Below, piece after piece: positions 1 to 13,632 of a DNA stretch of 64,000 bases. The notes below the pieces were generated by a model that had not been told where the DNA came from, ran no database searches, and worked only from the letters and a program-made list of their open reading frames with translations. The stretch spans positions 260,077-324,076 of the forward strand of contig JAUSDJ010000017.1 in assembly GCA_030650795.1 (NCBI GenBank), written 5' to 3'. This DNA is from Actinomycetota bacterium (lineage in GTDB: Bacteria > Actinomycetota > Actinomycetes > S36-B12). Positions within the stretch are counted from its first letter, which is position 1. Each line of letters starts with the position of its first letter. Position numbers and translations under genes: made by a program.

Positions 1-5
1 ACAGC

Positions 6-833
6 GTGAATCCCACAATCGTCGGAATCGCATCCATGCGACGTCGATTCCGAGATGCACGTGATGAGGCTGACCTCTGGAATGTTCGCTTAGAACTTGC
101 AGTCGCATGGATGCTCGTGAAAGCAGGTATTCGTTTTCGGTTTGGCGCTCCACCCAATCCGGAGCCTGACTTCGTTCTGGAAGATTTTGGAATTGGCATA
201 GAGGTCACTCGACGCGACTATGACGGTGTAGACGATCTCGTTCAAGATCTAACCCGGCTGATCGGAACTCGATCACTCACTTTGACACTGACGTTTGACA
301 ACTACCCGTTGCAAGTTCGGAAAGCAACAAAAAACTCCATCATGCTTCGTGTGTCCCAAGCAATAGAGACAGGCAGCCAGATTGACACGATTCATGAGAT
401 CGATACTTTTACGGGCACCTTCGCACTCGCTATCGAAATTGCCCAGAAACCAGATGACAACGACGCATCGCATGTCAAAGTGGAAGTAGAATCCGCCGCA
501 CTCGCAAGAACAATGGAACACGTTGAAGAGGCGCTTCTAGCCAAGACACGCGATCAACAGAAAATCGAGCAGGCCCGATCTATGCCTACCATCCTCTTGA
601 TCGAATCATCAGATGTTGGATATGCCTACATGCGCAGCGCAGCCACTTGGGAGGCCGTGCTTAGGACTTGGATGTCAGCCGAACTCCCCTTTCTGGGTGT
701 AGGCCTAGTCCAGCGAAATGTCCTGGCCCCTGGGATGGGCTTCACAATTGTCCTGAATCCTCATGCTGACGAGATGGTGCTTGAACGTGCATCCAATGTC
801 CTGGCGCTAATTGCAGCGGTCTTTCCAGCATAG
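6..833 (+). CDS. Hypothetical protein with possible PD-(D/E)xK nuclease-like core (may be 5'-truncated by the window edge)
   Basis: 275-aa ORF. The N-terminal pattern LELAVAWMLVKAG..IRFRFG..EPDFVLED..IGIEVTRR resembles the helix-E / strand-D / strand-ExK layout, with T in place of K. The frame is open to the window edge, so the start is uncertain. Confidence 0.45.
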   Translation: MNPTIVGIASMRRRFRDARDEADLWNVRLELAVAWMLVKAGIRFRFGAPPNPEPDFVLEDFGIGIEVTRRDYDGVDDLVQDLTRLIGTRSLTLTLTFDNYPLQVRKATKNSIMLRVSQAIETGSQIDTIHEIDTFTGTFALAIEIAQKPDDNDASHVKVEVESAALARTMEHVEEALLAKTRDQQKIEQARSMPTILLIESSDVGYAYMRSAATWEAVLRTWMSAELPFLGVGLVQRNVLAPGMGFTIVLNPHADEMVLERASNVLALIAAVFPA

Positions 834-1032
834 AAGGGCTGCCGCTCATACAAGGGTTTGCCATCCTTCCTGAAATGGGGCAAAAGCCACTTCACTCCTG
901 CGAGCAATGAACATCGCCTATGCGGAGACCGAAGGCACTCATTTGGCGCCGCCTTCCGCCCAGCTGTGAGAACCTGCTTGTGGACGCTGCACGGATACAG
1001 GAAGTGTCAGCCACCTATGGTGGAGTTGTCCC

Positions 1033-4000
1033 GTGAAGAAGGGAACTGGCCGACGGACTAAACTGTCCAAATCTAACGAGAGACGTGGCCAGCGCGCAGT
1101 GGTCGACGAAATGATCCAGTCCAAGCTTCCCTATGTGCAGGCCGGCCAGAATATTCACTTGATGGACGAGGATGCCTCCCAATGGGCTTCGACGAGACAC
1201 GGAGCCAACGCTGGGCGTGGCTTCCATTATCAAGATGCCATTTCATCTTGGTACGCGGCTCAACTACTGGTCTCTGACAGTCACACGCGAGTCGTCCCCG
1301 AATCACATCGCGAAGATGCGTCCTGCGAGGGTCAGGCAGGTACGGAGGTCCAGGCCAAGTCAAGACAGGAGCGAGTAGGACTTTTTCCCGCAAGAGAAGT
1401 CGCCGAGCACATCAAGACTCTGCATGCTCGTAAGTCCCGCAATGCGGGATCAACAATCGAATTGGTACTAGAGCGAGACATCCGCGAATGCCCGCTACCG
1501 CATAGCTGCATGCGCTTAGGAGACTTGGAAGCAGACCATCCCCTTGCCATCGCTTGCAAACGTCTCTTTGAAGACGCCTCGTGGCCGAATGCAGGTTGCA
1601 GCGAGATTCGCATTCGAATCCTCTCCTTCGAGGATGCTCGTCGGGGAACAGCAGATATCGTGCAAGACACATTCAATGTAGAGCCAGCCGTTGCTGCTCG
1701 GATTGCCGCTGACTACCTCCGACTCATAGCCGATGCCGCTGACTCCAACGCAGAACGTGACTACTCACATCGCGCCGGGCTCGATCGAACGACGCTCGAG
1801 AGGGCTGCCCATCAGGCAATTGCGGAGATTGATCCAGGCTCACTGGTCGCTTCCATCAATTCTGGTGCGATTGAACCACTCGATCTCGATACTCCTGATG
1901 ACAACGCCGTCTATTTTCAGGGCATTGATGCTCAGCCGGGCCACATAGCTGCTGGCTTACCCGCGCCTCGCACAGAACAAGTCGATGCGGTCTTGGCAGC
2001 TCTATCTGAAACTCGGGCAGTATTGATTGCGGGTCCGTCTGGTTCCGGAAAATCGACTGTTCTTTGGATGACGGCGTTTGTTGAACGTCACGTCAGCTGG
2101 TATCGCGTAAATCGACTTCTATCTTCTGACGTGGAAGACATTTACAGATTCGCCGTCGGAAGGCGTCCCACGTCAGCAGCGCCGCTCGGGTTCCTGGTCG
2201 ACGGAATAGGAATTGGAGACATGGAAGCATGGGACCAAGTTCTTCGACGACTCTCACCCTTGCAAAACGTGTACCTGCTAGGGACTGCCCGCATTGAAGA
2301 CTTGTTTGCTGCGACAACTGCCGACCTTGCAACAAGAGTCGACATCGGCCTCGACGAGGGTGTCGCCGCTCGCATCTTCGAATATCTTAAGCAAGGCGGT
2401 TTGACGCAATCGGTTCATTGGCGAGAAGCATTCAATGACGCCGATGGATTGACCCTTGAATTCACGTATCAGCTAACGCAAGGAGAGCGGCTGCCGGTCG
2501 TGCTCGGCGCACAGGTTGATCGCATGGTGAGAGAAGGAGCAAGTGATGAGCTTCAACTTCTTGCACTAGTAAGTGCGGCACACACACATGGCATTGCACT
2601 CTCCGTAGAGTCCGCGCAGCAGGCAGCCGGACTTGGCGACGATGCTTTTCGCCGTGCGATGAGACGACTTAAGGATGAACATCTTGTCCTAGAAGACTTT
2701 GATTCGATACGAGGACTGCACCTGCATCGCTCGCGCGCGCTCGTTGACTCAGTGCACGCGAATCCACCACCGACCTTGACTACAACAGTGACCCGCTTGA
2801 TGGGGGTCCTGCCCGAGAGCGACCTCGTCAAACTGGTCGTAGGAGTGCTGCGCGACAACCGCGCGCTGGACGGCGCGATTATTAAGCTAGCTGCGAGCCG
2901 TACCACCACCGGATCGCCTGAACTGCTCGGGGCGCTGCTCCACGCGTTTCGAGCACTTGATTTCGTGCGCCACGCTGAGTTGTGTGCGGGAATTGTTGAG
3001 CAGGCAGCAGTCCCTCCAGCCCATTGGCCACTTGTAGTCACATCAGGATTGACGGGAATTGAATGGCCCGAGTCGCTCTTCGATTCGTCCCTAAACGAGG
3101 CCATCAACGCGCTTGGAGAAAATCGGGTCGAGTCGACCGGACTCAGAGATGCATTTATCGATGCCGTTGACCGCGCTCAAGTGGTCGAGACCGTTCTGTC
3201 TCAGAGGAGCGCGAGTGCGCTTGCTTCCCTTCTTTCTGCATGCATCGGCGTCTCGAATACAACCGTAGACGATCTCGTTGCGGCCGATTGGGATGGAACA
3301 AGCGCGGAGAGCGTACTCACTGCGTGCACTTCCGAGGAATTCGCGGGTATTGGCCACACTGCCGGGCAACTCTCGATCCCCCTTGCAGAAAAGCTGCTCG
3401 AGTACGCGGGAGGCGAGTCCCAAATCATCGAGCGGCTACTCGAGAGCTACCCGACAGTGTTTGCAGTGGGGCGCGAGCAGCACGATGGAGTCGATGTCGC
3501 TTCTGCAAAAGTCATGTTCATCCACGAAGACTTGACCCCAGATCCAAATGCACGGGCGCACGATGTCGCGAAGGTTCTGATTCGGTCTCTCCCAGGCTGC
3601 TCGAGCGCTGCGATTGAGACCGTTCGAGCAGGCGGCAAACCCTTTCAAATCGGGGACCTGACATTCGGCCAATCTGGCTTGCTTGGGCAATACGCGTTAA
3701 CTAGCACTGATGTCGATTGGAACCGTGCTCGGACAGCATTGGTGATTCATGAGCTGGGAACTATGTCGAAGGGCAACCACGCCTCAGTGGCGGCAGGATT
3801 GCTTTATCGCGCCTATGCCTACCTGACCAGCCTTGCAGACCATTGGGTAACTCGTAGCCTGGATCCAAGCAATGCGTATTGGAAGAGTTCCGAAAAGGAA
3901 CGATCGGACCTCAAAACGGACGCGGATCAATTGGCCAACCCATTGGACGGGCTAGCGCTCTTCCGCGAAATCATTCCAAGCACTGGAGCGAGAGTAACCG

Positions 4001-5130
4001 CGCAGTTTGCAGGATTCGTAGACAACGAAATGGTCCCGTCGGCGTTGGGTCTGGACTCGGCTCACACAGTGTTACATCACGTCACGGATGTAATTCCCGC
4101 AAAGATTCGCGACGGAGAATACGGTTCACTCGCTGCAGTAGCAGCTGACCTGGTGGCCACCCTTGAGGAAGTACGATCCGCAGAACATTGGGCATTGATC
4201 GGCCTTAGTGAGCCGCCTACCGTGCTTGATGATTTGAAACTTCTCTTGATCGCAATACGCGACATAGCGTTAGCACTTCAGCATGACGCGATCACTCCTG
4301 CAGACATCCGGCGAGAACGATCTGGGCCCAAGGGGCAGGTGCTTCGTAGAGTTGCAAATCTGGCCAATCGCAAGATTGAGGCTGCATCTGAAGACTTCAT
4401 ACGGGAGTTCAATGCAGATCTTCGCGCGCGTGGTTTCAATGCGAAACTTGTGCACAAGCATGCGCCAGTTGATCAGTCCTATTGGCCTCGGATCGACGTA
4501 GCAGTCATAGTCCAGTGCGAGGACGTTGCCGCATGGACAAACCAAGTTGACGCGGTAATTCAGGCCGTCTTGGATATTCGCGATGCCCATCACCTACCAC
4601 CTACATTGATTTTTCCCGAGTTCGAAGGACGGGCAGAGCCGTCACTCGGCTGTGAGGTAATCCGTCGCTCCTTCCCGTCTGTCGCTGGGTACTACCGGTG
4701 GTATCCCGAAGAACGACCAGCCCAACAAACTCACACTCTGCAAAGCGATGTCAGCACGGCAATAGACCAGTTGATTCGATGCTCAGCGATCCAAGAGTTG
4801 CGAAGTAGAAGAAATTTGGCGCCCGAGTATGAAGACTTCTATCTCGGGTCCGTCACACAATTTGCGGAAGCCTTCGAGAGAATCACGGAATACGGTGACG
4901 ACGCTTGCCTTGGCCAAATTGCTTTTGAACTCAATCGATTGGCCATGGGCGTCGATGACGAAGGAAAGGAGGATGGCAAACCAGGAAACTTTGCATGTCA
5001 GGCACTAGACCTGCTCTCGGCCCCTTCCGACCCAGAGTCGTTGGGCGAAGGTGTAGTTATAGGCCTTCTGACACTCGCTGCCGTGCAATGGATGCACAAT
5101 TCAGACAAAGCGATCGAACTATTCGGATAG
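1033..5130 (+). CDS. Avs-like STAND NTPase with N-terminal Cap4/DUF4297-type nuclease domain
   Basis: 1365-aa ORF with a GTG start preceded by GGAG (1022-1025). The N-terminus has GRGFHYQD (aa 61-68), E90, ED (94-95) and VQAK (106-109), typical of DUF4297/Cap4 nucleases. Walker A is GPSGSGKST (aa 334-342, nt 2032-2058), Walker B is LGFLVDG (D390), and LLGTAR, a GxP-like DGLTLEF and a winged-helix-like RRLKDEHLVLED..LHLHRS follow. The C-terminal ~750 aa is a long helical region. Confidence 0.6.
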   Translation: MKKGTGRRTKLSKSNERRGQRAVVDEMIQSKLPYVQAGQNIHLMDEDASQWASTRHGANAGRGFHYQDAISSWYAAQLLVSDSHTRVVPESHREDASCEGQAGTEVQAKSRQERVGLFPAREVAEHIKTLHARKSRNAGSTIELVLERDIRECPLPHSCMRLGDLEADHPLAIACKRLFEDASWPNAGCSEIRIRILSFEDARRGTADIVQDTFNVEPAVAARIAADYLRLIADAADSNAERDYSHRAGLDRTTLERAAHQAIAEIDPGSLVASINSGAIEPLDLDTPDDNAVYFQGIDAQPGHIAAGLPAPRTEQVDAVLAALSETRAVLIAGPSGSGKSTVLWMTAFVERHVSWYRVNRLLSSDVEDIYRFAVGRRPTSAAPLGFLVDGIGIGDMEAWDQVLRRLSPLQNVYLLGTARIEDLFAATTADLATRVDIGLDEGVAARIFEYLKQGGLTQSVHWREAFNDADGLTLEFTYQLTQGERLPVVLGAQVDRMVREGASDELQLLALVSAAHTHGIALSVESAQQAAGLGDDAFRRAMRRLKDEHLVLEDFDSIRGLHLHRSRALVDSVHANPPPTLTTTVTRLMGVLPESDLVKLVVGVLRDNRALDGAIIKLAASRTTTGSPELLGALLHAFRALDFVRHAELCAGIVEQAAVPPAHWPLVVTSGLTGIEWPESLFDSSLNEAINALGENRVESTGLRDAFIDAVDRAQVVETVLSQRSASALASLLSACIGVSNTTVDDLVAADWDGTSAESVLTACTSEEFAGIGHTAGQLSIPLAEKLLEYAGGESQIIERLLESYPTVFAVGREQHDGVDVASAKVMFIHEDLTPDPNARAHDVAKVLIRSLPGCSSAAIETVRAGGKPFQIGDLTFGQSGLLGQYALTSTDVDWNRARTALVIHELGTMSKGNHASVAAGLLYRAYAYLTSLADHWVTRSLDPSNAYWKSSEKERSDLKTDADQLANPLDGLALFREIIPSTGARVTAQFAGFVDNEMVPSALGLDSAHTVLHHVTDVIPAKIRDGEYGSLAAVAADLVATLEEVRSAEHWALIGLSEPPTVLDDLKLLLIAIRDIALALQHDAITPADIRRERSGPKGQVLRRVANLANRKIEAASEDFIREFNADLRARGFNAKLVHKHAPVDQSYWPRIDVAVIVQCEDVAAWTNQVDAVIQAVLDIRDAHHLPPTLIFPEFEGRAEPSLGCEVIRRSFPSVAGYYRWYPEERPAQQTHTLQSDVSTAIDQLIRCSAIQELRSRRNLAPEYEDFYLGSVTQFAEAFERITEYGDDACLGQIAFELNRLAMGVDDEGKEDGKPGNFACQALDLLSAPSDPESLGEGVVIGLLTLAAVQWMHNSDKAIELFG

Positions 5131-5355
5131 GAAGAATCCTCTGAATAGGTGCCCGAATTCAAACGCCTTCAATACTGAATCATTCGCAAATTGACGAAGA
5201 TCCTTAGTTTCGCGCGGTCAGCCAGGTATGCATTGGACCTGCCCCCAAGTCACAGATCCCGCACAAAGCGCGGCATGAACGCGGCGAACTTAGAGCCGCT
5301 CCTCCCTACATGCATCCCTGCAGGCCATTGTCAGGAAATGCTCTCCCGATTGGAG

Positions 5356-5387
5356 ATCGTGTGAGATTTGAGTGGCATCGTGTGAGA
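5356..5387 (+). repeat. Direct repeat ATCGTGTGAGA x2 spaced 21 bp start-to-start
   Basis: Exact 11-mers at 5356-5366 and 5377-5387 lie in the gap between the STAND gene and the T1-peptidase-like gene. Confidence 0.5.
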
Positions 5388-5509
5388 CGCCTCGCACATA
5401 GGTGAGAGAACCCGCGCTCGTATCGGATACCAAGTCCGATACACCTTTAGCGTCCAGCAGAGGACGTAGAGCGTCAGGCGTGGCGATTGCGAACTGCAAT
5501 ACTTTTCCG

Positions 5510-6298
5510 GTGACTCTCATCGTGTCGGCCATCAGCGACTTTGGGGTGGTCCAAGCATCAGATTCGAATATCGTTCAAAGCCTGCCCGTTGCGGCCACCA
5601 CCGATGGCGAGAAAGTATTCGGACTCCCGTTTGCTCCTGCAGCTATCGCTGTTGCTGGTACGTATCGCGTCGGGATACTGCGCATGGATGAATGGATGCC
5701 TTCCGCAATTGCCGACTTCCAGGTAGGAACCAGTGTGAATCCCGTTGGCGCATTTGCTGAATATCTGGCCACTCGTCTTGAAAACGAACTCACCGAAAGG
5801 CAATGGGGCGAACCGACAGTGTTGCAAATCGTTGGCTACGAAGGTGACGCGAAAAATAGCCAACACCCAGTTTTGTACCACCTTCGCAATGTTGACCGCA
5901 TAGATCCAAATACCGGGAACTACGTTGGCATTAGTAACAAATTTCAAGTCACTGAGGACTTCTGGCTCAGAGATCATGACCCGGTGCGCAGTCCGGGTGC
6001 GCACAATCAATTTCGAGTGCAGTTCTACTTCAATGGCTCAACAGCAGGTCGGACTGTCTTCGGACGGCACTTAATTGAAATGTTCGGAATAATTTGGAGT
6101 GATGCCTCCAATGAGTTCAGGTCACCAAGGAATCTCTACGAACTCACTGAATTCATGAAGATTCTCATCCAAACGATAGGCACGCTGTATTCCATTAGCG
6201 ACTACGTCATGCGTCCAGTGGGCGGTCCTCCACAAATGTGGGCCATACCTCAACCAAATGGTGCTGTAGAGCTCTGGGCCGAAGCGAAGGCGACGTGA
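5510..6298 (+). CDS. Proteasome/HslV/Anbu-like (peptidase T1) Ntn-hydrolase-fold protein; start uncertain (ORF is open from 5402)
   Basis: An in-frame GTG at 5510 gives (M)TLIVSAISDFGVVQASDSNIV...GEKVF..AIAVAGT. That places Thr1, Asp17 and Lys34 as in the proteasome beta / HslV catalytic arrangement, close to the Anbu-type TYC..G.VF.SDSR N-terminus as I recall it. Later LQIVGYEGD..PVLYHLRNV, FNGSTAG and GGPPQMWAI..NGAVE fit the beta-subunit fold order with a ~45-aa insertion. No clear RBS is visible. Confidence 0.5.
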   Translation: MTLIVSAISDFGVVQASDSNIVQSLPVAATTDGEKVFGLPFAPAAIAVAGTYRVGILRMDEWMPSAIADFQVGTSVNPVGAFAEYLATRLENELTERQWGEPTVLQIVGYEGDAKNSQHPVLYHLRNVDRIDPNTGNYVGISNKFQVTEDFWLRDHDPVRSPGAHNQFRVQFYFNGSTAGRTVFGRHLIEMFGIIWSDASNEFRSPRNLYELTEFMKILIQTIGTLYSISDYVMRPVGGPPQMWAIPQPNGAVELWAEAKAT

Positions 6299-6590
6299 AA
6301 CTGTTGGACTGGTCCAGGCCCGTCGACTTGAGCCTGCTGGGGACTGCACCGAGTTCGATTGCCCCTTGACCCTTGAGGATTTGTGCTTCTGCTTATCCGC
6401 AAGCGTAGGTTGCGTCTGAGCCTGCGAGAGGATGTCGCGAGACTGATACTGATCTGACCATGCAACTTGGCGACGTTACCGGCCAAGCGCGACTTCGGCC
6501 CACCCAGCCGCTTCGAAGACTCTGTTGACACGCTGGGAAACCGTCGAGGATTGACGTGACAACCACACTGAATGACTGCATTCGTTGGGA

Positions 6591-9500
6591 TCATCCCGCC
6601 ATGCCCAAGCCTTGGTCGGGGCGCGGGCTCAGCGGGAGGGGACGCCGTAGGGCAGCGTGCGCGGTGGGCTGCTCGATGAATCCGCGTTGGGACATGCGCT
6701 CGGCAGTCATGGCAATGACCGCGTCACGGCGGGCATCAGGTCCGGCCGCCATCAGGGCGGCGGCTTGCTCTCCGTCGGCGATGTCCGCGATATTCACCAC
6801 CGCAAGCACGTCGTTTCGATGGCGGGTGAAGGCGACATAGGCGCTGGACATGTCGCGGTCCGGACCGACGTCGATCACCAGCGAGTCCACGGTCTGGCCT
6901 TGGAGTTTGTGCGTGGTCATGGCGTACCCATGGCGCGCGTTGCGCATGACCTGCAGCGCCGTCAGATGACTCGTGCAGACCTTGTCGCCGTCGCGGTACG
7001 CGATCTCGATGCCCTTGTCGTCGACTGAGGCGACCACTGCTCGGGTGCCATTGGACAGGGATCGGTTTTGGCCTCGGGTGATGTTCTTCGTGATCACGAT
7101 CTGGTCCCCGATAGCGATGCTTCTAGTAAGGCCTCGGTCGCGGAAGATGACATCGCCGCCGGTGATCCAGCCGCGGTTTCGTGCTTCGACCCGAGCCAGA
7201 GTGTTGAGAATCTCGACTTGGTCATTGCGGTCTGATTCCAGTCCAGTTGCATGGAGTCGTTCCAGTGGCTCCGGACAGCCCTCGGCGCGCTCAGCCCAGG
7301 CTGAGATGAGGACACGCTCGGCTTCGGTCTGGCTCGCAACGACGACAAGTTGCCCGGCATCTGCGAGCTTGAGCAGGGCCTGCTCGGGGTCACCGTCGCG
7401 TAGGAAGGCTGCGCATTCTCGGCCGACGTCGGTGCGTTGACGGAGGTTTTCGACGAGTTCAGCGCCAGGTCGGGATTCGTGAAATTGCCGGAAGAGGCCG
7501 GAGGGTCCGACCGGTTGGAGTTGGCGGTGATCGCCGATGAGGGTGACGGTGATGTCGTTGTCGGCAGCCCATTCCAGAACCGTGGCCATGTCGGTTGCCG
7601 GGATCATGGAGGCCTCGTCGATGACGAGATGATCCATCTGGGGCAAGGAGAAGCGTGTGCATATTCGTTGCGCCAGTGCTCGCTCTCGTCGACGCCCAGA
7701 ACGCGCGAGTTCGTCTGCCTTGATCCGGATCGGGTCTTGCGGATCTCGAGCGAAGTTGATGCGCATGGTGAGCCAGGTGACCGTGCCCGCCTGAACGCCG
7801 GCGGTGTCGCGCAAGGCCTGTGCCGCAATCGCGGCGACGCACACCCCGTAGACGCGCTGGCCACGTGCGGCCAGAACAGTCCTGGCCGCGTCGATTGCCG
7901 TGGTCTTACCCGAGCCAGCTGCCCCGATCACGGTTGAGACACTGTCACGGCCGGTCGTCATCTGGGTGAATAAAGCGAGCTGTCCGGGCGTGAAACTGAG
8001 GCTCTGTTGTGTCCAGCCGCTCAGCTCGCGCCACTGCTCAAGACCCAAGAGGGCTGCTTCGGGATCGAGGGCGTGCTTGTTCTGCTCAGAGGCTGCAGCG
8101 AAGGCCTCGCAAGCTCGGCGCTCCGCGTCGGCGATGCGGTTTGAGGCGTGCTTGCGCACCCCAACTCGCCCACGGGCAGTGACCTCCCCGGTGGTGAATT
8201 CACGCGCAACGACCTCCGACAACATGGCCCGGACCTGCTCTTCAGACCAGTCGTGCGGCGCGAACGCGCGAACGGCGGCCTCAATGCGGGCAGTGATCTC
8301 AGCGCCCTTGTTCTCACACACAATCTCCTCCACCGTCCGCGCCCAGAAGTCCACATCCCAGGCCCGGGGCTGCTGAGCGAAGTCAAGAGGGACGGCGCCA
8401 AAAGCAGAGCCTAGGTCGATCCCGAACTCATCAGCGCGGTCGATCATCCGGGCCCGGACCTGGCCCCAAGTCAGGGTCTGCTCGCCCTTGGCGCTAGTGA
8501 CCTTCCGCTTGGCACGAGAATCCAAAACCTGAAGCCTCGCGCGAGTCACGCCGACTGATTCCTCGTGCAGTGACTCCAGGGTTTCCCCGTGCACGCGTGC
8601 CTGCGCCTGGGAATAGAAGGCCATGAGATCCGTGTCGGCGCCGATGACCTCCCACTGGCGGTCGGCGAGGTCGAACTCCCATCCGGTCACGAGCCCTCGC
8701 TGCGTCGACAACTGGCGCAAGCATCGCTCGAATTGAGCTTGCAACCACCACGAATGATTGACCAAGTCCGCTCCCCCGGTTGCCATCGTGCGCTCCACGC
8801 CATCCACGCACACAACCCGGTTGGGGATCATCACGTGCCCGTGCAAGTGTGGGTCCAGTTCACGCGAGTACGACTCGATCGACACCGTCGCTGAGTAGCC
8901 CAGACCCCGAATCGGGAGGGACTTCTGCCCGTCGCCCTCGTGCCCTGCGCGCCCGTGAGCAACCCGGGCCATCAGCCCATCTGCGGCCTGACGGGCAGCA
9001 TCGCGGACCGTGGCAAGCCACTGCTCGCGCGTGGATGGATCGGCGACGAAGGCGGCAACACTGAACGACTTGGGGCACGTCAAGGTCAGCTCGTAGCCCG
9101 CGTTGCCAACGACACTGGTCTCCTCGGACTGCTCCAGGACGCGACCCCAGATCCACTCCCCGAGCTTCTTGTCTGACAGGGAATAGTCCAATGGCTTGCC
9201 GTCGAATACTTGCTGCTGGCAAGACTCTTCGAGGGCTCGATGGTGTGCACCGAGAAGACGCATCACCTCCTCCCGATCGAACTGCACGGGCGGCGGCTCG
9301 AACTCCAAGCCCTGCCGGTCCCGGGCCCAGTACATCGCCCAGGCGTGTTCATTCGAACGCAGCAGAGCCTCCGCCGTACGGATCACGACGGTGCCGTTCG
9401 ATCGGCCGGCAGCACGCGCAACGGAGCGCAACTGCGACGACAGGTTCCGCTTTGGCCAAAGATCTTCAGGGTGAATCTCCGCCAATTCACAGGCTTCCTT

Positions 9501-9860
9501 GATGACCGAGAAGTAGGGGCCCGCGGCGATACGGGCCTGACGATTTCGCTCCGTTCGTACGCGAACTCGCTCACCGGTTTGCCGGTCAATTCCATACATC
9601 GCGTCACGCACAATGCGGCCGTCGGCTAGCGTCAGCTGCTCTCCTGGGCGATAAGCCAACCTCGCGGCCGTGACCCCCTCGCCGAGGAACCAGACCTGCC
9701 TCGAGTCGACGGATTCCGACCCCAATCGGTAGTCGACTTGGGCCTCCCGGGCAGCCACGGAGGCAGACTTATCCGGTGTGATTCCGCCCAATCTGTAACC
9801 CACCTGCGCACCCAAATCGGCGCCGTGAGTGAGCATTTGGCAATGACCGCTGCGAGCCAT
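6591..9860 (-). CDS. MOBF-type conjugative relaxase fused to a RecD-like helicase (TraA/TrwC family)
   Basis: 1089-aa ORF. It has the relaxase histidine motif YSRELDPHLHGHVMIPN and a helicase Walker A VIGAAGSGKTT, followed by DEASM and a C-terminal UvrD/RecD-like region (HKLQGQTVD). Confidence 0.85.
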   Translation of the reverse strand: MARSGHCQMLTHGADLGAQVGYRLGGITPDKSASVAAREAQVDYRLGSESVDSRQVWFLGEGVTAARLAYRPGEQLTLADGRIVRDAMYGIDRQTGERVRVRTERNRQARIAAGPYFSVIKEACELAEIHPEDLWPKRNLSSQLRSVARAAGRSNGTVVIRTAEALLRSNEHAWAMYWARDRQGLEFEPPPVQFDREEVMRLLGAHHRALEESCQQQVFDGKPLDYSLSDKKLGEWIWGRVLEQSEETSVVGNAGYELTLTCPKSFSVAAFVADPSTREQWLATVRDAARQAADGLMARVAHGRAGHEGDGQKSLPIRGLGYSATVSIESYSRELDPHLHGHVMIPNRVVCVDGVERTMATGGADLVNHSWWLQAQFERCLRQLSTQRGLVTGWEFDLADRQWEVIGADTDLMAFYSQAQARVHGETLESLHEESVGVTRARLQVLDSRAKRKVTSAKGEQTLTWGQVRARMIDRADEFGIDLGSAFGAVPLDFAQQPRAWDVDFWARTVEEIVCENKGAEITARIEAAVRAFAPHDWSEEQVRAMLSEVVAREFTTGEVTARGRVGVRKHASNRIADAERRACEAFAAASEQNKHALDPEAALLGLEQWRELSGWTQQSLSFTPGQLALFTQMTTGRDSVSTVIGAAGSGKTTAIDAARTVLAARGQRVYGVCVAAIAAQALRDTAGVQAGTVTWLTMRINFARDPQDPIRIKADELARSGRRRERALAQRICTRFSLPQMDHLVIDEASMIPATDMATVLEWAADNDITVTLIGDHRQLQPVGPSGLFRQFHESRPGAELVENLRQRTDVGRECAAFLRDGDPEQALLKLADAGQLVVVASQTEAERVLISAWAERAEGCPEPLERLHATGLESDRNDQVEILNTLARVEARNRGWITGGDVIFRDRGLTRSIAIGDQIVITKNITRGQNRSLSNGTRAVVASVDDKGIEIAYRDGDKVCTSHLTALQVMRNARHGYAMTTHKLQGQTVDSLVIDVGPDRDMSSAYVAFTRHRNDVLAVVNIADIADGEQAAALMAAGPDARRDAVIAMTAERMSQRGFIEQPTAHAALRRPLPLSPRPDQGLGMAG

Positions 9861-11481: not shown

Positions 11482-13632
11482 CTACTGCGACGCTGACTCG
11501 CTGTCACGGATGTAAGTCACGCCGAAGCCAACGACTTGTCGGAACTCCTGACGGCGTGCGGCCACGTCGAACTGGCCCCCCGAGCCCTTCTGGAAGATGT
11601 CAAGGCCGCGACCGAGCAGCACCTTCCAGCCACTGTCGGTGCGGATCGACCGGTCGTGAACTGTGTCGTCCCACACGACGTTGAACTTGATACCGACCGA
11701 CGCGGCGCCATCCTGGATGTCCTTGAGCATGAGGAGGTGCTGTTGCTGGAACTCGCCCTTGTCTTCCTTGGTTACGAGCCTCACGGCAATCTCGTCAGCC
11801 GGGTCCTTGCCCGAGGCCAGAAGCGCGAGCAGGTCTACGAGGTTCCGACCCTGGTGCGGCAGGCGAACGTACGGGTCGACGATGGTGATTTCGGTCGCGC
11901 CGCGCAGGTACGGCAACAGCAAGGTCTCGTACGAGACGCCGCGCTGGTTCTCCTGGAACTCGCGGTGGCCCTCGAACAACGGCTCGGTCTTCGGTCCAAC
12001 CTCTGCAGGAGCAGCGCCGGTCGAGAGCACCGCGTCGGTGGTGCTAATAGACGACTCCTCGGCTTGGTGCTGGTGGTAGTACGCCGGATACTCGTCTTCC
12101 TCGAGGGTCGAAACTGCGTGCCAATCGCCTCCCTTGTCGTAGTAGCCAAACTTCACGTTGACCATGGTGCCGTCGATACGAAGGATCTGGTCCTTGACTC
12201 TCTTGCGCCCTTCGATGGCGAACCGCAGGATCTCCTCGATTTCCTTTTTAGCCGCCTCACCCTGCGGATACAAGATCTTCATCAGACCTGAGAACGTCTT
12301 GTGGATGCCGTCACGGTCGCGGGTGGAGATGTCTGAGCCCAAAGTGAAGTACTGCTGGTACCGGTCGGAGTAGTCGGCGTCGCGCATCGACTTGAGCACC
12401 TCTGCGATGTAATCGACGACGAAACCGTAGCCGTTAGAGAACATCTCGCCGCGGATCGTGTCGACCTCCCACCCGGGGATGTAGCAGTGCAGCCGATCGA
12501 GGAATGCCGAGTCGTGGTAGCTCTCAGGGAGTTCGTCGAATAGGTCCGAGTGTTTCAACATGAAGGGAACGTTGTGGGAAGTGTTGCCTACAAACACCAT
12601 TGATGCTTCGGCTCCCAAGGTCTCTACTCCGCGGGAGAAGGTCTTGTTCGCCATGTAGTTCTTCATGATGTCGACAAGGGCTTTATCGGTGCGCTTCTTC
12701 TTACCAGCGAACTCGTCGAACGCAACGACGTCCCAGTAGCCGACCAAGCCGATACGGCCGTTCGAGTTGTTGACGAAGAGCTTCGGAACCGTGACTTCGC
12801 CACCGGAGATCAGCATTCCGTGGGGCGAGAATTCCGAGAAGATGTGTGACTTGCCGGTGCCCTTAGGGCCGAGTTCGATGAGGTTGTAGTTTCGCTCGAC
12901 GAACGGAATCAGGCGGACGAGCTGGATGAGTTTGGCCCGGCGACCGAAAAGTTCAGGGTTGAAGCCGATGGACTGGATGAGAAGGTCGATCCATTCATCC
13001 GTCGTGAATTGGCGACGGGCAGTTACGTATCCGTCGAAGTCGAAGTTGGAGAGTTGAATCGGCTTAATGGATCCCAGGATCCAAGGCACGAAGTGAGGAC
13101 TGTCGCTGTGTGAGTACTCGATGTCGCAGATGCACCACACGCCACCTACCAACAACTTCGGATGGCTCTTGATGATCGCTGGCGAGACCAGCACCTGCTT
13201 GATGCCGAGGTTGGCAAACTCGGCTTCGTAGGTGTCCTCCTTGTCGTTGAGTTGCACCTGCACCTTGTCAATGATGCGGTAGCGGCCCTTTTCGCGAATG
13301 TTCGACTTCACCAGTTCGGCCCGGTTCCGGTGCACGTAGTGGTCGGCAAGGATCTTGCGTACGCTCTCGATTCCCGACTGGATCGTTGCCTCGTCGTCCG
13401 AGGCTGCGTACTGGCCGAGTAGGTACTCCAACACAAACGAGGGCACGATCGCGTTGCCCTTGACAGCCTTGACGAGGTCCTTGCGAACTACTGCGCCTCC
13501 AAAGAATTCGTTGATCTTCTGGTCGAGGGCTGACTTCACTGGTGGATTCGACGCAACGGGAGCATCGATAACGCCCTCTGGATAGTCGTCGTCGAATACA
13601 TCAGATTCGGTGCGTTCGGTCATCTCAGTCAC
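11482..13632 (-). CDS. brxL: BREX BrxL (AAA+/Lon-related ATPase) with atypical C-terminal MITD1-type PLD-like domain
   Basis: 716-aa ORF and the last gene of the locus. Walker A is LGPKGTGKSH and Walker B is VVAFDEF. The C-terminal ~140 aa reads IVDPYVRLPHQGRNL...VHDRSIRTDSGWKVLLGRGLDIF. Confidence 0.8.
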   Translation of the reverse strand: MTEMTERTESDVFDDDYPEGVIDAPVASNPPVKSALDQKINEFFGGAVVRKDLVKAVKGNAIVPSFVLEYLLGQYAASDDEATIQSGIESVRKILADHYVHRNRAELVKSNIREKGRYRIIDKVQVQLNDKEDTYEAEFANLGIKQVLVSPAIIKSHPKLLVGGVWCICDIEYSHSDSPHFVPWILGSIKPIQLSNFDFDGYVTARRQFTTDEWIDLLIQSIGFNPELFGRRAKLIQLVRLIPFVERNYNLIELGPKGTGKSHIFSEFSPHGMLISGGEVTVPKLFVNNSNGRIGLVGYWDVVAFDEFAGKKKRTDKALVDIMKNYMANKTFSRGVETLGAEASMVFVGNTSHNVPFMLKHSDLFDELPESYHDSAFLDRLHCYIPGWEVDTIRGEMFSNGYGFVVDYIAEVLKSMRDADYSDRYQQYFTLGSDISTRDRDGIHKTFSGLMKILYPQGEAAKKEIEEILRFAIEGRKRVKDQILRIDGTMVNVKFGYYDKGGDWHAVSTLEEDEYPAYYHQHQAEESSISTTDAVLSTGAAPAEVGPKTEPLFEGHREFQENQRGVSYETLLLPYLRGATEITIVDPYVRLPHQGRNLVDLLALLASGKDPADEIAVRLVTKEDKGEFQQQHLLMLKDIQDGAASVGIKFNVVWDDTVHDRSIRTDSGWKVLLGRGLDIFQKGSGGQFDVAARRQEFRQVVGFGVTYIRDSESASQ

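What the first reader, a model, noticed from the sequence alone, without database searches (positions are those of the whole stretch)
1033..5130. 1365-aa Cap4/DUF4297-nuclease-STAND fusion (Avs-like)
The sequence shows GRGFHYQD, E90, E94-D95 and Q107-x-K109 (Cap4-type nuclease signature), followed about 220 aa later by the P-loop GPSGSGKST, the Walker B hhhhD (GFLVDG), LLGTAR, a GxP-like DGLTLEF and a winged-helix-like segment. A ~750-aa helical C-terminus could be the sensor. This architecture is known in outline from Avs/AVAST families, but the C-terminal sensor region looks unrelated to anything I can name, and the subtype is undetermined.
Basis: partly seen in the sequence, partly recalled or inferred. 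Interest (0 to 1): 0.6.

Follow-up and report, generated by a model that had tools for sequence, protein, structure and literature searches.

The report
Untested Avs-like nuclease-STAND defence gene
This intact 1365-codon gene encodes a one-protein bacterial immune receptor of the known Avs type (DNA-cutting head, ATP-driven STAND switch, large sensor of unmatched fold); it sits on a mobile island beside a BREX system and belongs to a sizeable family that I could not find named or tested.

Summary
The protein itself gets only sub-threshold P-loop hits, but a profile search finds a large full-length family (1848 50%-identity clusters at E<=1e-3). Among 36 members, 22 match Pfam nSTAND_NTPase5, 6 match Cap4_nuclease and 11 match PADLOC LmuA. 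None matches an Avs1-5 model. An AlphaFold model of residues 27-620 (pLDDT 79) matches Avs3 best (Foldseek E 2e-10), then SAMD9, Avs4, CED-4 and Avs5. The nuclease, Walker A/B, sensor-1 Arg and winged-helix His residues are 91-100% conserved. The 766-residue C-terminus folds confidently (pLDDT 85) but has no match in the PDB or BFVD. One family member carries a TIR domain in place of the nuclease. No neighbouring gene is conserved. Neighbourhoods hold BREX, CBASS, ApeA, integrases and transposases. The gene was not found in 40 related genomes. Verdict: a single-gene, Avs-like antiphage STAND receptor with a Cap4-type nuclease effector and an unknown trigger, a new member of a known kind. This scan has already reported similar ~1300-aa Cap4-STAND genes on other DNA.

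The parts
1019..1025 (+). Shine-Dalgarno-like GGTGGAG, 7 nt before the GTG start
   Evidence: Read from the sequence.
1033..1194 (+). Residues 1-54: basic, poorly conserved N-terminal tail, predicted disordered
   Evidence: pLDDT is below 50 in the model. Homologues have an alignable K/R/T/P-rich tail. Mean pairwise identity is 0.19.
1195..1557 (+). Residues 55-175: Cap4/DUF4297-type PD-(D/E)xK nuclease core (GRGFHYQD 61-68; E90, D95, Q107, K109, E147)
   Evidence: Profile hits to HamA 8zue_A and LmuA 9ux7_C. PF14130 and LmuA hits in family members. Alpha-beta-beta-beta-alpha-beta topology in the model. Catalytic residues 91-95% conserved.
1558..1911 (+). Residues 176-293: helical bundle linking the nuclease to the NTPase (conserved D237, N239, C/I280-E281)
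   Evidence: Model helices and conservation. It forms part of the predicted homodimer interface.
1912..2352 (+). Residues 294-440: STAND nucleotide-binding domain. It holds the conserved strap YFxGxxxQPGHxAAGLxxPR (294-313), Walker A 334-341, Walker B D390, and sensor-1 R420 followed by E422-D423
   Evidence: The Pfam nSTAND_NTPase5 match starts at residue 294 and is found in 22 of 36 members. Foldseek matches to Avs3, Avs4 and CED-4. Conservation 95-100%.
2353..2541 (+). Residues 441-503: helical (lid) domain with the GLTLE(F/Y)T motif (472-478) and invariant Q494
   Evidence: Model helices and invariant columns.
2542..2772 (+). Residues 504-580: winged-helix domain with invariant E549-H550, H563 and R566, and the PPP 578-580 hinge
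   Evidence: Three helices plus a beta-hairpin in the model. H563 and R566 are 100% conserved. Weak GntR and Crp wHTH hits in 4 of 36 members.
2773..5127 (+). Residues 581-1365: family-specific sensor region. It is mostly alpha-helical, with two small alpha/beta inserts (about 809-885 and 1137-1198)
   Evidence: AF2 model of residues 600-1365 has pLDDT 84.8 and pTM 0.74. No significant match in the PDB (best E 0.1) or BFVD. No Atlas relative for this part alone. Mean pairwise identity is 0.20-0.27, against 0.40-0.42 for the NTPase.
5128..5130 (+). Stop codon

Best explanation
The gene encodes a stand-alone antiviral STAND (Avs-like, NLR-like) receptor. SHOWN here: (a) an N-terminal Cap4/LmuA-type PD-(D/E)xK nuclease with an intact catalytic set; (b) a central nSTAND5-type NTPase (NBD, helical domain, winged helix) with intact Walker A and B, a sensor-1 Arg and a winged-helix His; (c) a 785-residue C-terminal module that is conserved across the family but diverges fastest; (d) a position as strain-specific cargo on a mobilisable island beside a BREX system. 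INFERRED from SeAvs3, EcAvs4 and SeAvs7: in the resting state the ADP-bound NTPase and the sensor hold the nuclease inactive. A phage-made protein binds the sensor, the NTPase exchanges ADP for ATP and oligomerises, and the Cap4 domains are brought together into an active nuclease. That nuclease degrades dsDNA indiscriminately and aborts the infection. The trigger is unknown.
For: Domain identity. The N-half model matches Avs3 8dgc at E 1.9e-10 over 707 columns, then SAMD9, Avs4, PAB2304, CED-4 and EfAvs5. nSTAND_NTPase5 is hit in 22 of 36 members and Cap4_nuclease in 6 of 36. LmuA is hit in 11 of 36 and HamA in 3 of 36. Profile searches of the PDB hit HamA and LmuA.

Functional residues are 91-100% conserved across 127 full-length members.

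Effector swapping. Family member P0159 has a TIR_2 domain (E 5.6e-26) in place of the nuclease, on the same NTPase and sensor. This is the usual pattern in immune STANDs.

Single-gene system. Neither window neighbour has a homologue in 72 family loci, and no neighbour family occurs in more than 8 of 65 loci.

Defence and mobile context. The window holds BrxL and a TrwC relaxase. Family loci lie next to or near CBASS, RelA_SpoT, integrases, a NACHT protein, ApeA, IS21, SIR2, Mrr, SAVED and a 7-deazaguanine-type cluster. Relatives occur on 12 plasmids, 7 of them conjugative.

Accessory gene. It is single-copy and was not found in 40 relatives.

The nuclease plus linker region is predicted to homodimerise (ipSAE 0.66, best of 3 controls 0.31; the mark was reached by 20 of 30 proteins solved as pairs of one chain and 1 of 23 solved as single chains).

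The Avs3 and Avs7 mechanism is described in bioRxiv 10.64898/2026.01.04.697583.
Against: There are no experimental data for any member of the family. The protein itself has only sub-threshold family hits. No PADLOC Avs1-5 model matches any member. The sensor resembles no sensor with a known trigger. Co-folding the nuclease with the sensor gave no support for an autoinhibitory dock (score 0.00), which is not evidence against one. Walker B is hhhhDG rather than the hhhhDD/DE that I recall as typical of STAND NTPases, so ATP hydrolysis may be slow or absent. Context association was judged from a handful of annotated loci, not from a statistical defence score.
Confidence: 0.75

Rival explanations
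1. The architecture is the same, but the sensor does not bind a phage protein. It would monitor a nucleic-acid or genome-integrity cue, or a host factor perturbed by infection, as Lamassu and Hachiman do. Their effector nucleases are the closest sequence relatives of this N-terminus.
For: By sequence the nuclease is closest to LmuA and HamA. The sensor contains two small alpha/beta inserts and is not a plain TPR array. It matches no known protein-sensing Avs sensor. Lee et al. leave non-protein ligands open.
Against: Lamassu and Hachiman need partner ATPases or helicases (LmuB/LmuC, HamB). No partner gene is conserved here. Most STAND sensors with known triggers bind proteins. No nucleic-acid-binding domain was detected.
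Confidence: 0.1
2. The gene serves competition between mobile elements (anti-plasmid, anti-ICE or entry exclusion for its island) rather than phage defence.
For: It lies 1.5 kb from a TrwC-type relaxase on a mobilisable island. Relatives sit on conjugative plasmids and next to integrases and transposases. None was found in phage genomes.
Against: Defence genes are commonly carried by such elements, so this context does not discriminate. Several homologues sit in chromosomal defence islands beside CBASS, ApeA and SIR2 with no conjugation genes nearby.
Confidence: 0.1
3. The gene is one part of a three-gene module with the upstream 359-aa ORF and the downstream 298-aa proteasome-like ORF. This was proposed in the scan's own note e1-3584540.
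For: All three genes are on the same strand, separated by 200-270 bp gaps, and share a lower-GC segment (0.53-0.56, against 0.63-0.65 further on).
Against: Neither neighbour has a tblastn match in any of 72 family loci. No neighbour family recurs beyond closely related Streptomyces. Neither neighbour has a Pfam hit.
Confidence: 0.03
4. It is a non-immune P-loop protein, such as an ABC-type or AAA+ ATPase or a MalT-like regulator, that happens to carry a nuclease-like N-terminus.
For: NCBI names a Kitasatospora homologue 'ABC transporter ATP-binding protein' and UniRef names it 'EcfA2'. The Walker A sequence GPSGSGKST resembles ABC P-loops, and weak ABC hits cover the P-loop only.
Against: The ABC matches cover only about 20-55 residues around the P-loop. 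The fold matches are led by STAND proteins and include the winged helix. The nuclease catalytic residues are conserved. A TIR effector variant exists.
Confidence: 0.02

Closest known systems
SeAvs3 (AVAST type 3; PDB 8dgc, Avs3 bound to phage PhiV-1 terminase)
   Same: The domain order is the same: an N-terminal Cap4-like PD-(D/E)xK nuclease, a STAND NTPase and a large C-terminal sensor in one polypeptide. It is the best fold match of residues 27-620 (E 1.9e-10). Activation through assembly of the Cap4 domains is the inferred mechanism.
   Different: There is no sequence-level match: profile searches of the PDB do not find Avs3 and no PADLOC Avs model is hit. The NTPase falls under Pfam nSTAND_NTPase5. 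The sensor shows no fold similarity to the Avs3 sensor, so there is no reason to expect terminase recognition.
SeAvs7 and the Avs8, Avs10-24 families (Lee et al. 2026, bioRxiv 10.64898/2026.01.04.697583)
   Same: Avs7 is also a Cap4 nuclease, STAND NTPase and helical sensor protein that tetramerises through its Cap4 and NTPase domains. That survey describes 198 defence-associated STAND clades and 684 sensor clusters, a landscape this family fits.
   Different: I could not place this family in that classification. Its signature motifs are absent from the part of the supplementary tables held here (the file was cut when stored), and two homologue accessions are not listed. No trigger is known. 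The family was found mostly in Actinomycetota and Chloroflexota, whereas the tested Avs proteins are mostly from Enterobacteriaceae.
Lamassu LmuA and Hachiman HamA effector nucleases, and the CBASS Cap4 nuclease domain (Pfam PF14130)
   Same: These are the closest sequence relatives of the N-terminal domain. The G-x-GF-x-YQD helix, the PE..ED strands and the VQVK strand all align.
   Different: Those proteins work with separate partners (LmuB/LmuC SMC-like ATPase, HamB helicase, or a SAVED domain plus a CD-NTase). Here the nuclease is fused to a STAND NTPase and no partner gene is conserved.

Membership tests
STAND NTPase superfamily (Pfam nSTAND_NTPase5 group) | P-loop NBD followed by a helical domain and a winged-helix domain | tested here: met
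   The AF2 model shows NBD 294-440, helical domain 441-503 and winged helix 504-580. Foldseek is led by Avs3, SAMD9, Avs4, PAB2304, CED-4, Avs5, NOD2 and Apaf-1.
STAND NTPase superfamily (Pfam nSTAND_NTPase5 group) | Significant match to a STAND family profile | tested here: inconclusive
   P0001 itself scores 22 bits for PF25199, below the 34-bit cut-off. Of 36 full-length family members, 22 match it at E<=0.01, best 6.7e-9. Membership therefore rests on transitive homology.
STAND NTPase superfamily (Pfam nSTAND_NTPase5 group) | Walker A GxxxxGK[ST], Walker B acidic residue, sensor-1 Arg and conserved WHD His | tested here: met
   G334-S341, D390, R420 and H563 are 98-100% conserved. Walker B has a single acidic residue (DG).
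Cap4/DUF4297 nuclease domain (PF14130) | Profile match plus the PD-(D/E)xK catalytic set | tested here: met
   There is no direct Pfam hit on P0001. PF14130 is hit in 6 of 36 members (5.1e-9), and member P0149 scores 34.3 bits against a 26.2-bit cut-off. LmuA is hit in 11 of 36 members. The family profile matches HamA and LmuA in the PDB. E90, D95, Q107 and K109 are 91-95% conserved.
AVAST/Avs types 1-5 | Match to the type-specific profiles (PADLOC-DB v2) | tested here: not met
   No Avs model is hit by P0001 or by any of 36 family members.
AVAST/Avs types 1-5 | Sensor domain homologous to a terminase- or portal-binding Avs sensor | tested here: not met
   The C-terminal model (pLDDT 85) has no PDB match at E<0.1. 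Avs3 8dgc, Avs4 8dgf and Avs5 9jap are in the library, since they are hit by the N-half.
Avs in the broad sense (antiviral STAND: effector, STAND NTPase, sensor of at least 400 aa, defence-associated) | Tripartite architecture, modular effector and defence or mobile-element context | tested here: met
   Architecture. TIR-for-nuclease swap in P0159. Context of BREX, CBASS, ApeA, SIR2, integrases and plasmids.
Avs in the broad sense (antiviral STAND: effector, STAND NTPase, sensor of at least 400 aa, defence-associated) | Demonstrated protection against phage, triggered by a phage component | not testable with these tools
   This needs plaque assays and co-expression toxicity screens.
Lamassu (LmuA-LmuB-LmuC) and Hachiman (HamA-HamB) | Adjacent SMC-like LmuB or helicase HamB partner gene | tested here: not met
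   The window neighbours have no Pfam hits. No neighbour family is conserved across 65 loci.
CBASS Cap4 effector | Nuclease fused to a SAVED sensor and encoded in a CD-NTase operon | tested here: not met
   No SAVED hit in P0001 or in 36 members. A CD-NTase-like gene is a neighbour in only 5 of 65 loci, where it belongs to separate operons.

The most novel reading that the evidence does not exclude
The 785-residue C-terminal module is a sensor fold not represented among solved or characterised Avs sensors. It would recognise a phage (or mobile-element) component outside the set known for Avs1-24, possibly one specific to phages of Actinomycetota and Chloroflexota, or a non-protein cue. That would define a new Avs family with a new trigger.
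Probability: 0.3. Interest if true: 0.55.

Novelty: new member of a known kind. Interest (0 to 1): 0.35.

Why it matters
The case shows that a large, full-length-conserved family of Cap4-nuclease STAND receptors is still missed by PADLOC v2 and NCBIfam. The family spans at least 58 species, mainly Actinomycetota and Chloroflexota, and also occurs on proteobacterial and cyanobacterial plasmids. One member is mislabelled 'ABC transporter ATP-binding protein'. The family is a ready candidate for trigger discovery in hosts whose phage-sensing repertoire is little studied. The confident sensor model and the TIR-swapped relative give clear handles for experiments. It does not change the current picture of how Avs-type immunity works.

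Tried and rejected
1. Direct Pfam, PADLOC and NCBIfam scans of P0001 gave only sub-threshold P-loop hits.
2. The word-indexed homologue search found only 14 proteins and made the family look rare. The exhaustive profile search corrected this.
3. The first genome-contig scan was swamped by a generic P-loop pattern and confirmed nothing. An alignment of 36 sequences was too divergent for the tool. A 13-sequence alignment of the helical and winged-helix region worked.
4. Foldseek of the sensor model against the PDB and BFVD gave nothing below E 0.1. The Atlas search with the sensor alone scored 0.58 or less.
5. I looked for the family in the Lee et al. 2026 supplementary tables by accession and by motif and found nothing. 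The stored file is cut, so this is not evidence that the family is absent from their set.
6. Co-folding the nuclease domain with the sensor to look for an autoinhibitory dock scored 0.00. This is no support and no evidence against.
7. The consensus scan found no sigma-70-like promoter and no more terminator-like sites than in shuffles.
8. The three-gene-module idea was rejected because the neighbours are not conserved.
9. I did not attempt sensor-trigger co-folding. The sensor alone uses 766 of the 1000 residues allowed, and nothing pointed to a particular candidate.
Full report
OBSERVATION. The + strand carries an uninterrupted ORF from 1033 to 5130 that encodes 1365 residues from a GTG start. 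The public protein record for this gene starts at M27 and is 1339 aa long. I prefer the GTG at 1033 for two reasons. A GGTGGAG site lies 7 nt upstream of it. Homologues carry an alignable basic N-terminal tail of the MAKRSKRTKRTP type.

DIRECT DATABASE SEARCHES ARE NEARLY SILENT. Pfam gives only sub-threshold hits over the P-loop region: nSTAND_NTPase5 at 22 bits against a 34-bit cut-off, plus AAA_16, nSTAND3 and nSTAND1. There is no Cap4_nuclease hit. PADLOC and NCBIfam give only P-loop noise.

THE FAMILY. The word-indexed search found only 14 relatives. An exhaustive profile search with residues 40-1190 against 1.84 billion cluster representatives found 1848 proteins at E<=1e-3 and 811 at E<=1e-30. 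The best 150 all score above 665 bits, and most span the profile from the nuclease to the sensor. The ~1300-aa architecture is therefore conserved as a unit in a sizeable family.

In a 127-sequence alignment the conserved positions are the expected functional ones:
- Nuclease: P89-E90, D95, Q107, K109-S-R and E147.
- NBD: G297, P302, H304, L309 and R313 in a strap before the domain; G334-P-S-G-x-G-K-S (Walker A); D390 (Walker B); R420 (sensor-1) followed by E422-D423.
- Helical domain: L473, E476 and Q494.
- Winged helix: E549-H550, H563 and R566.

Mean pairwise identity is 0.42 for the NBD, 0.40 for the helical and winged-helix domains, 0.35 for the nuclease and 0.20-0.27 for the C-terminal parts. 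A sensor that evolves faster than the switch is the usual pattern for immune receptors.

DOMAIN IDENTITY BY TRANSITIVE HOMOLOGY AND BY FOLD. Of 36 full-length members, 22 match nSTAND_NTPase5 (best E 6.7e-9) and 6 match Cap4_nuclease PF14130 (best E 5.1e-9). A divergent member, P0149, scores 34.3 bits for PF14130 against a 26.2-bit cut-off. In PADLOC, 11 of 36 members match LmuA (2.7e-9), 3 match HamA, and none matches an Avs1-5 model. NCBIfam has no model for the family. Family profiles searched against PDB sequences hit HamA (8zue_A, E 3e-4 to 9e-4) and LmuA (9ux7_C, E 2e-3 to 0.08). The alignments run across G-x-GF-x-YQD, PE..ED and VQVK.

An AlphaFold2 model of residues 27-620 has mean pLDDT 79. 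It shows four parts in order:
- an alpha-beta-beta-beta-alpha-beta nuclease core;
- a helical bundle;
- a Rossmann-like NBD;
- a helical lid and a three-helix, beta-hairpin winged helix.

Foldseek against the PDB ranks Avs3 first (8dgc, E 1.9e-10, 707 aligned columns). SAMD9, Avs4, PAB2304, CED-4 and EfAvs5 follow. AAA+ proteins, NOD2, Apaf-1 and plant NLRs come lower. The ABC-like hits in sequence searches cover only about 20-55 residues around the P-loop. I conclude that the N-terminus is a Cap4/LmuA-type nuclease and that the NTPase is STAND.

The motif DGLTLEF has no proline. It sits about 52 residues after sensor-1. From my own knowledge, NB-ARC proteins carry GLPL at a similar distance, so I read it as the counterpart of the GxP motif by analogy only.

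THE SENSOR. A model of residues 600-1365 is confident even with 13 sequences (pLDDT 84.8, pTM 0.74). It is mostly helical, with two small alpha/beta inserts. It has no significant match in the PDB (best E 0.1), although Avs3, Avs4 and Avs5 are in that library. It has no match in BFVD. The protein-language-model atlas finds nothing for this part alone (score 0.58 or less). For the whole protein, the atlas returns nSTAND5 and nSTAND3 clusters of 1290-1340 aa, one nearby cluster carrying Cap4_nuclease. The trigger cannot be inferred by homology.

EVIDENCE THAT THE N-TERMINUS IS AN INTERCHANGEABLE EFFECTOR. Member P0159 (1213 aa) aligns with P0001 from residue 274 into the sensor (29% identity over 685 columns, E 5e-55). 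Its first ~130 residues are a TIR_2 domain (E 5.6e-26). It is the only one of the 162 sequences examined that has enough N-terminal sequence before the P-loop and lacks the family nuclease. Swaps between a nuclease and a TIR domain on a constant switch and sensor are typical of defence STANDs.

ONE GENE, NO PARTNERS. The upstream ORF is 359 aa when read in full and the downstream ORF is 298 aa. Neither has a Pfam hit, and neither has a tblastn match in any of 72 family loci. I clustered all ORFs within 7 kb of the gene in 65 non-redundant loci. No neighbour family occurs in more than 8 loci, and the most frequent ones come from closely related Streptomyces. Among the recurrent neighbours are an integrase-like protein (7 loci) and a CD-NTase-like protein (5 loci).

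CONTEXT. In the window the gene lies 1.5 kb from a TrwC-type relaxase (6591-9860, - strand) and about 6 kb from brxL (11482-13632, - strand). An earlier scan note reports a complete type 1 BREX system there. GC content is 0.53-0.56 over 1-6500 and 0.63-0.65 beyond.

Annotated homologue loci show these neighbours:
- three integrases, a NACHT protein and a ResIII helicase;
- a complete CBASS operon immediately upstream and a RelA_SpoT gene downstream;
- a solitary insertion between PTS and tautomerase genes;
- transposases and a 7-deazaguanine-type cluster in Kitasatospora;
- ApeA and IS21 copies;
- SIR2, Mrr, HNH, SAVED and AGS_C.

Relatives occur on 12 plasmids, 7 of them conjugative, and in no phage record. 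The gene is single-copy in its own 2.64-Mb genome. It was not found in 40 relatives: 12 of the same genus, 12 of the same family and 16 of the same order. A family-specific motif scan of species-representative genomes confirmed 58 loci. Most are in Actinomycetota (Streptomyces, Kitasatospora, Saccharothrix, Kribbella, Promicromonospora, Acidimicrobiia) and Chloroflexota (Dehalococcoidia), with single cases in Acidobacteriota and Bacteroidota.

MECHANISM. The following are shown: the architecture, the intact catalytic and nucleotide-binding residues, the accessory and mobile status, and the modular effector.

The following is inferred from SeAvs3, EcAvs4 and SeAvs7. The ADP-bound resting state is autoinhibited. 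A phage protein binds the sensor, ATP-dependent oligomerisation follows, and the Cap4 domains assemble into an active dsDNA nuclease that aborts the infection.

One modelling result fits the proximity-activation step. The nuclease plus linker region (residues 40-290) is predicted to form a symmetric homodimer. The ipSAE is 0.66 and the best of 3 controls is 0.31. In the tool's calibration the mark was reached by 20 of 30 proteins solved as pairs of one chain and by 1 of 23 solved as single chains. The interface uses the conserved 47-65 segment and the 219-247 helix.

Co-folding the nuclease with the sensor gave no support for an autoinhibitory dock (score 0.00). This is not evidence against one.

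COMPARISON WITH WHAT IS KNOWN. The protein works like an Avs protein and meets the broad definition: effector, STAND NTPase, large sensor and defence context. It fails the membership tests for Avs1-5, both by profile and by sensor fold. It is not Lamassu, Hachiman or CBASS Cap4, because the defining partners or the SAVED domain are absent.

Lee et al. (bioRxiv 10.64898/2026.01.04.697583) catalogue 198 defence-associated STAND clades and 684 sensor clusters. This family probably lies somewhere in that catalogue. I could not verify this because the held supplementary file is cut.

This scan has already reported similar ~1300-1400-aa Cap4-STAND genes with unknown sensors in other genomes. I did not test whether they belong to the same family.

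VERDICT. The gene is an uncharacterised member of a known kind, with an unknown trigger. Interest is moderate to low. The value lies in a well-defined, widespread and untested family whose sensor is confidently modelled but matches no known fold.

Noticed in passing
window 1-833 (+); full ORF is L073:222-1301: The upstream ORF is 359 aa when read beyond the window edge. It has no Pfam hit and no homologue in 72 loci of the STAND family, so it is not a conserved partner.
   Followed up: partly
window 5402-6298 (+): This 298-aa ORF has no Pfam hit. An earlier scan note calls it an orphan proteasome-like Thr1 hydrolase. It has no homologue next to any other family member.
   Followed up: partly
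window 11482-13632 (-): BrxL has the usual BrxL_N and BrxL_ATPase domains, but its C-terminus matches MIT_C (the phospholipase-D-like domain of MITD1) at E 1.5e-40. I expected a Lon-protease-like domain there.
   Followed up: no
window about 6000-7000: GC content steps from 0.53-0.56 (positions 1-6500, the STAND gene and its two small neighbours) to 0.63-0.65 (relaxase region). This suggests the STAND segment was acquired separately within the island.
   Followed up: no
P0159 / L074:1169-4810: This family member has a TIR_2 domain in place of the Cap4 nuclease on the same NTPase and sensor. It is a natural effector swap.
   Followed up: partly
P0171 (WP_184944859.1, Kitasatospora kifunensis) / L012:10001-14029: This full-length family member is named 'ABC transporter ATP-binding protein' in NCBI and 'EcfA2' in UniRef, probably because of the GPSGxGKS P-loop. 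This looks like a misannotation. It sits beside transposases and a QueC/PTPS/GTP-cyclohydrolase/radical-SAM cluster that also has RT-like and FGE-sulfatase genes.
   Followed up: no
L075:7977-12301 (Sphingopyxis indica plasmid pMC4): A relative annotated 'dsDNA nuclease domain-containing protein' ends after about 632 aa, directly in front of an IS21 istA-istB pair. The gene appears to be truncated by the insertion.
   Followed up: no
L035 and L052 (Candidatus Poriferisodalis sp., one chromosome): One sponge-associated genome carries two diverged copies of the family. Many hits come from sponge-symbiont-like Dehalococcoidia and Acidimicrobiia MAGs.
   Followed up: no
window 1912-1971 (residues 294-313): The motif YFxGxxxQPGHxAAGLxxPR is among the most conserved stretches of the family (G297 100%, H304 99%, L309 98%), yet most of it falls in the low-confidence loop of the model (residues 287-309). 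It may be a nucleotide-contacting strap or a regulatory hinge between the effector and the NBD.
   Followed up: no
L005, L042, L063, L067 (and L014): In about 5 of 65 loci, a CD-NTase-like gene (CBASS-like where annotated, as in L005) lies within 7 kb of the family gene.
   Followed up: partly
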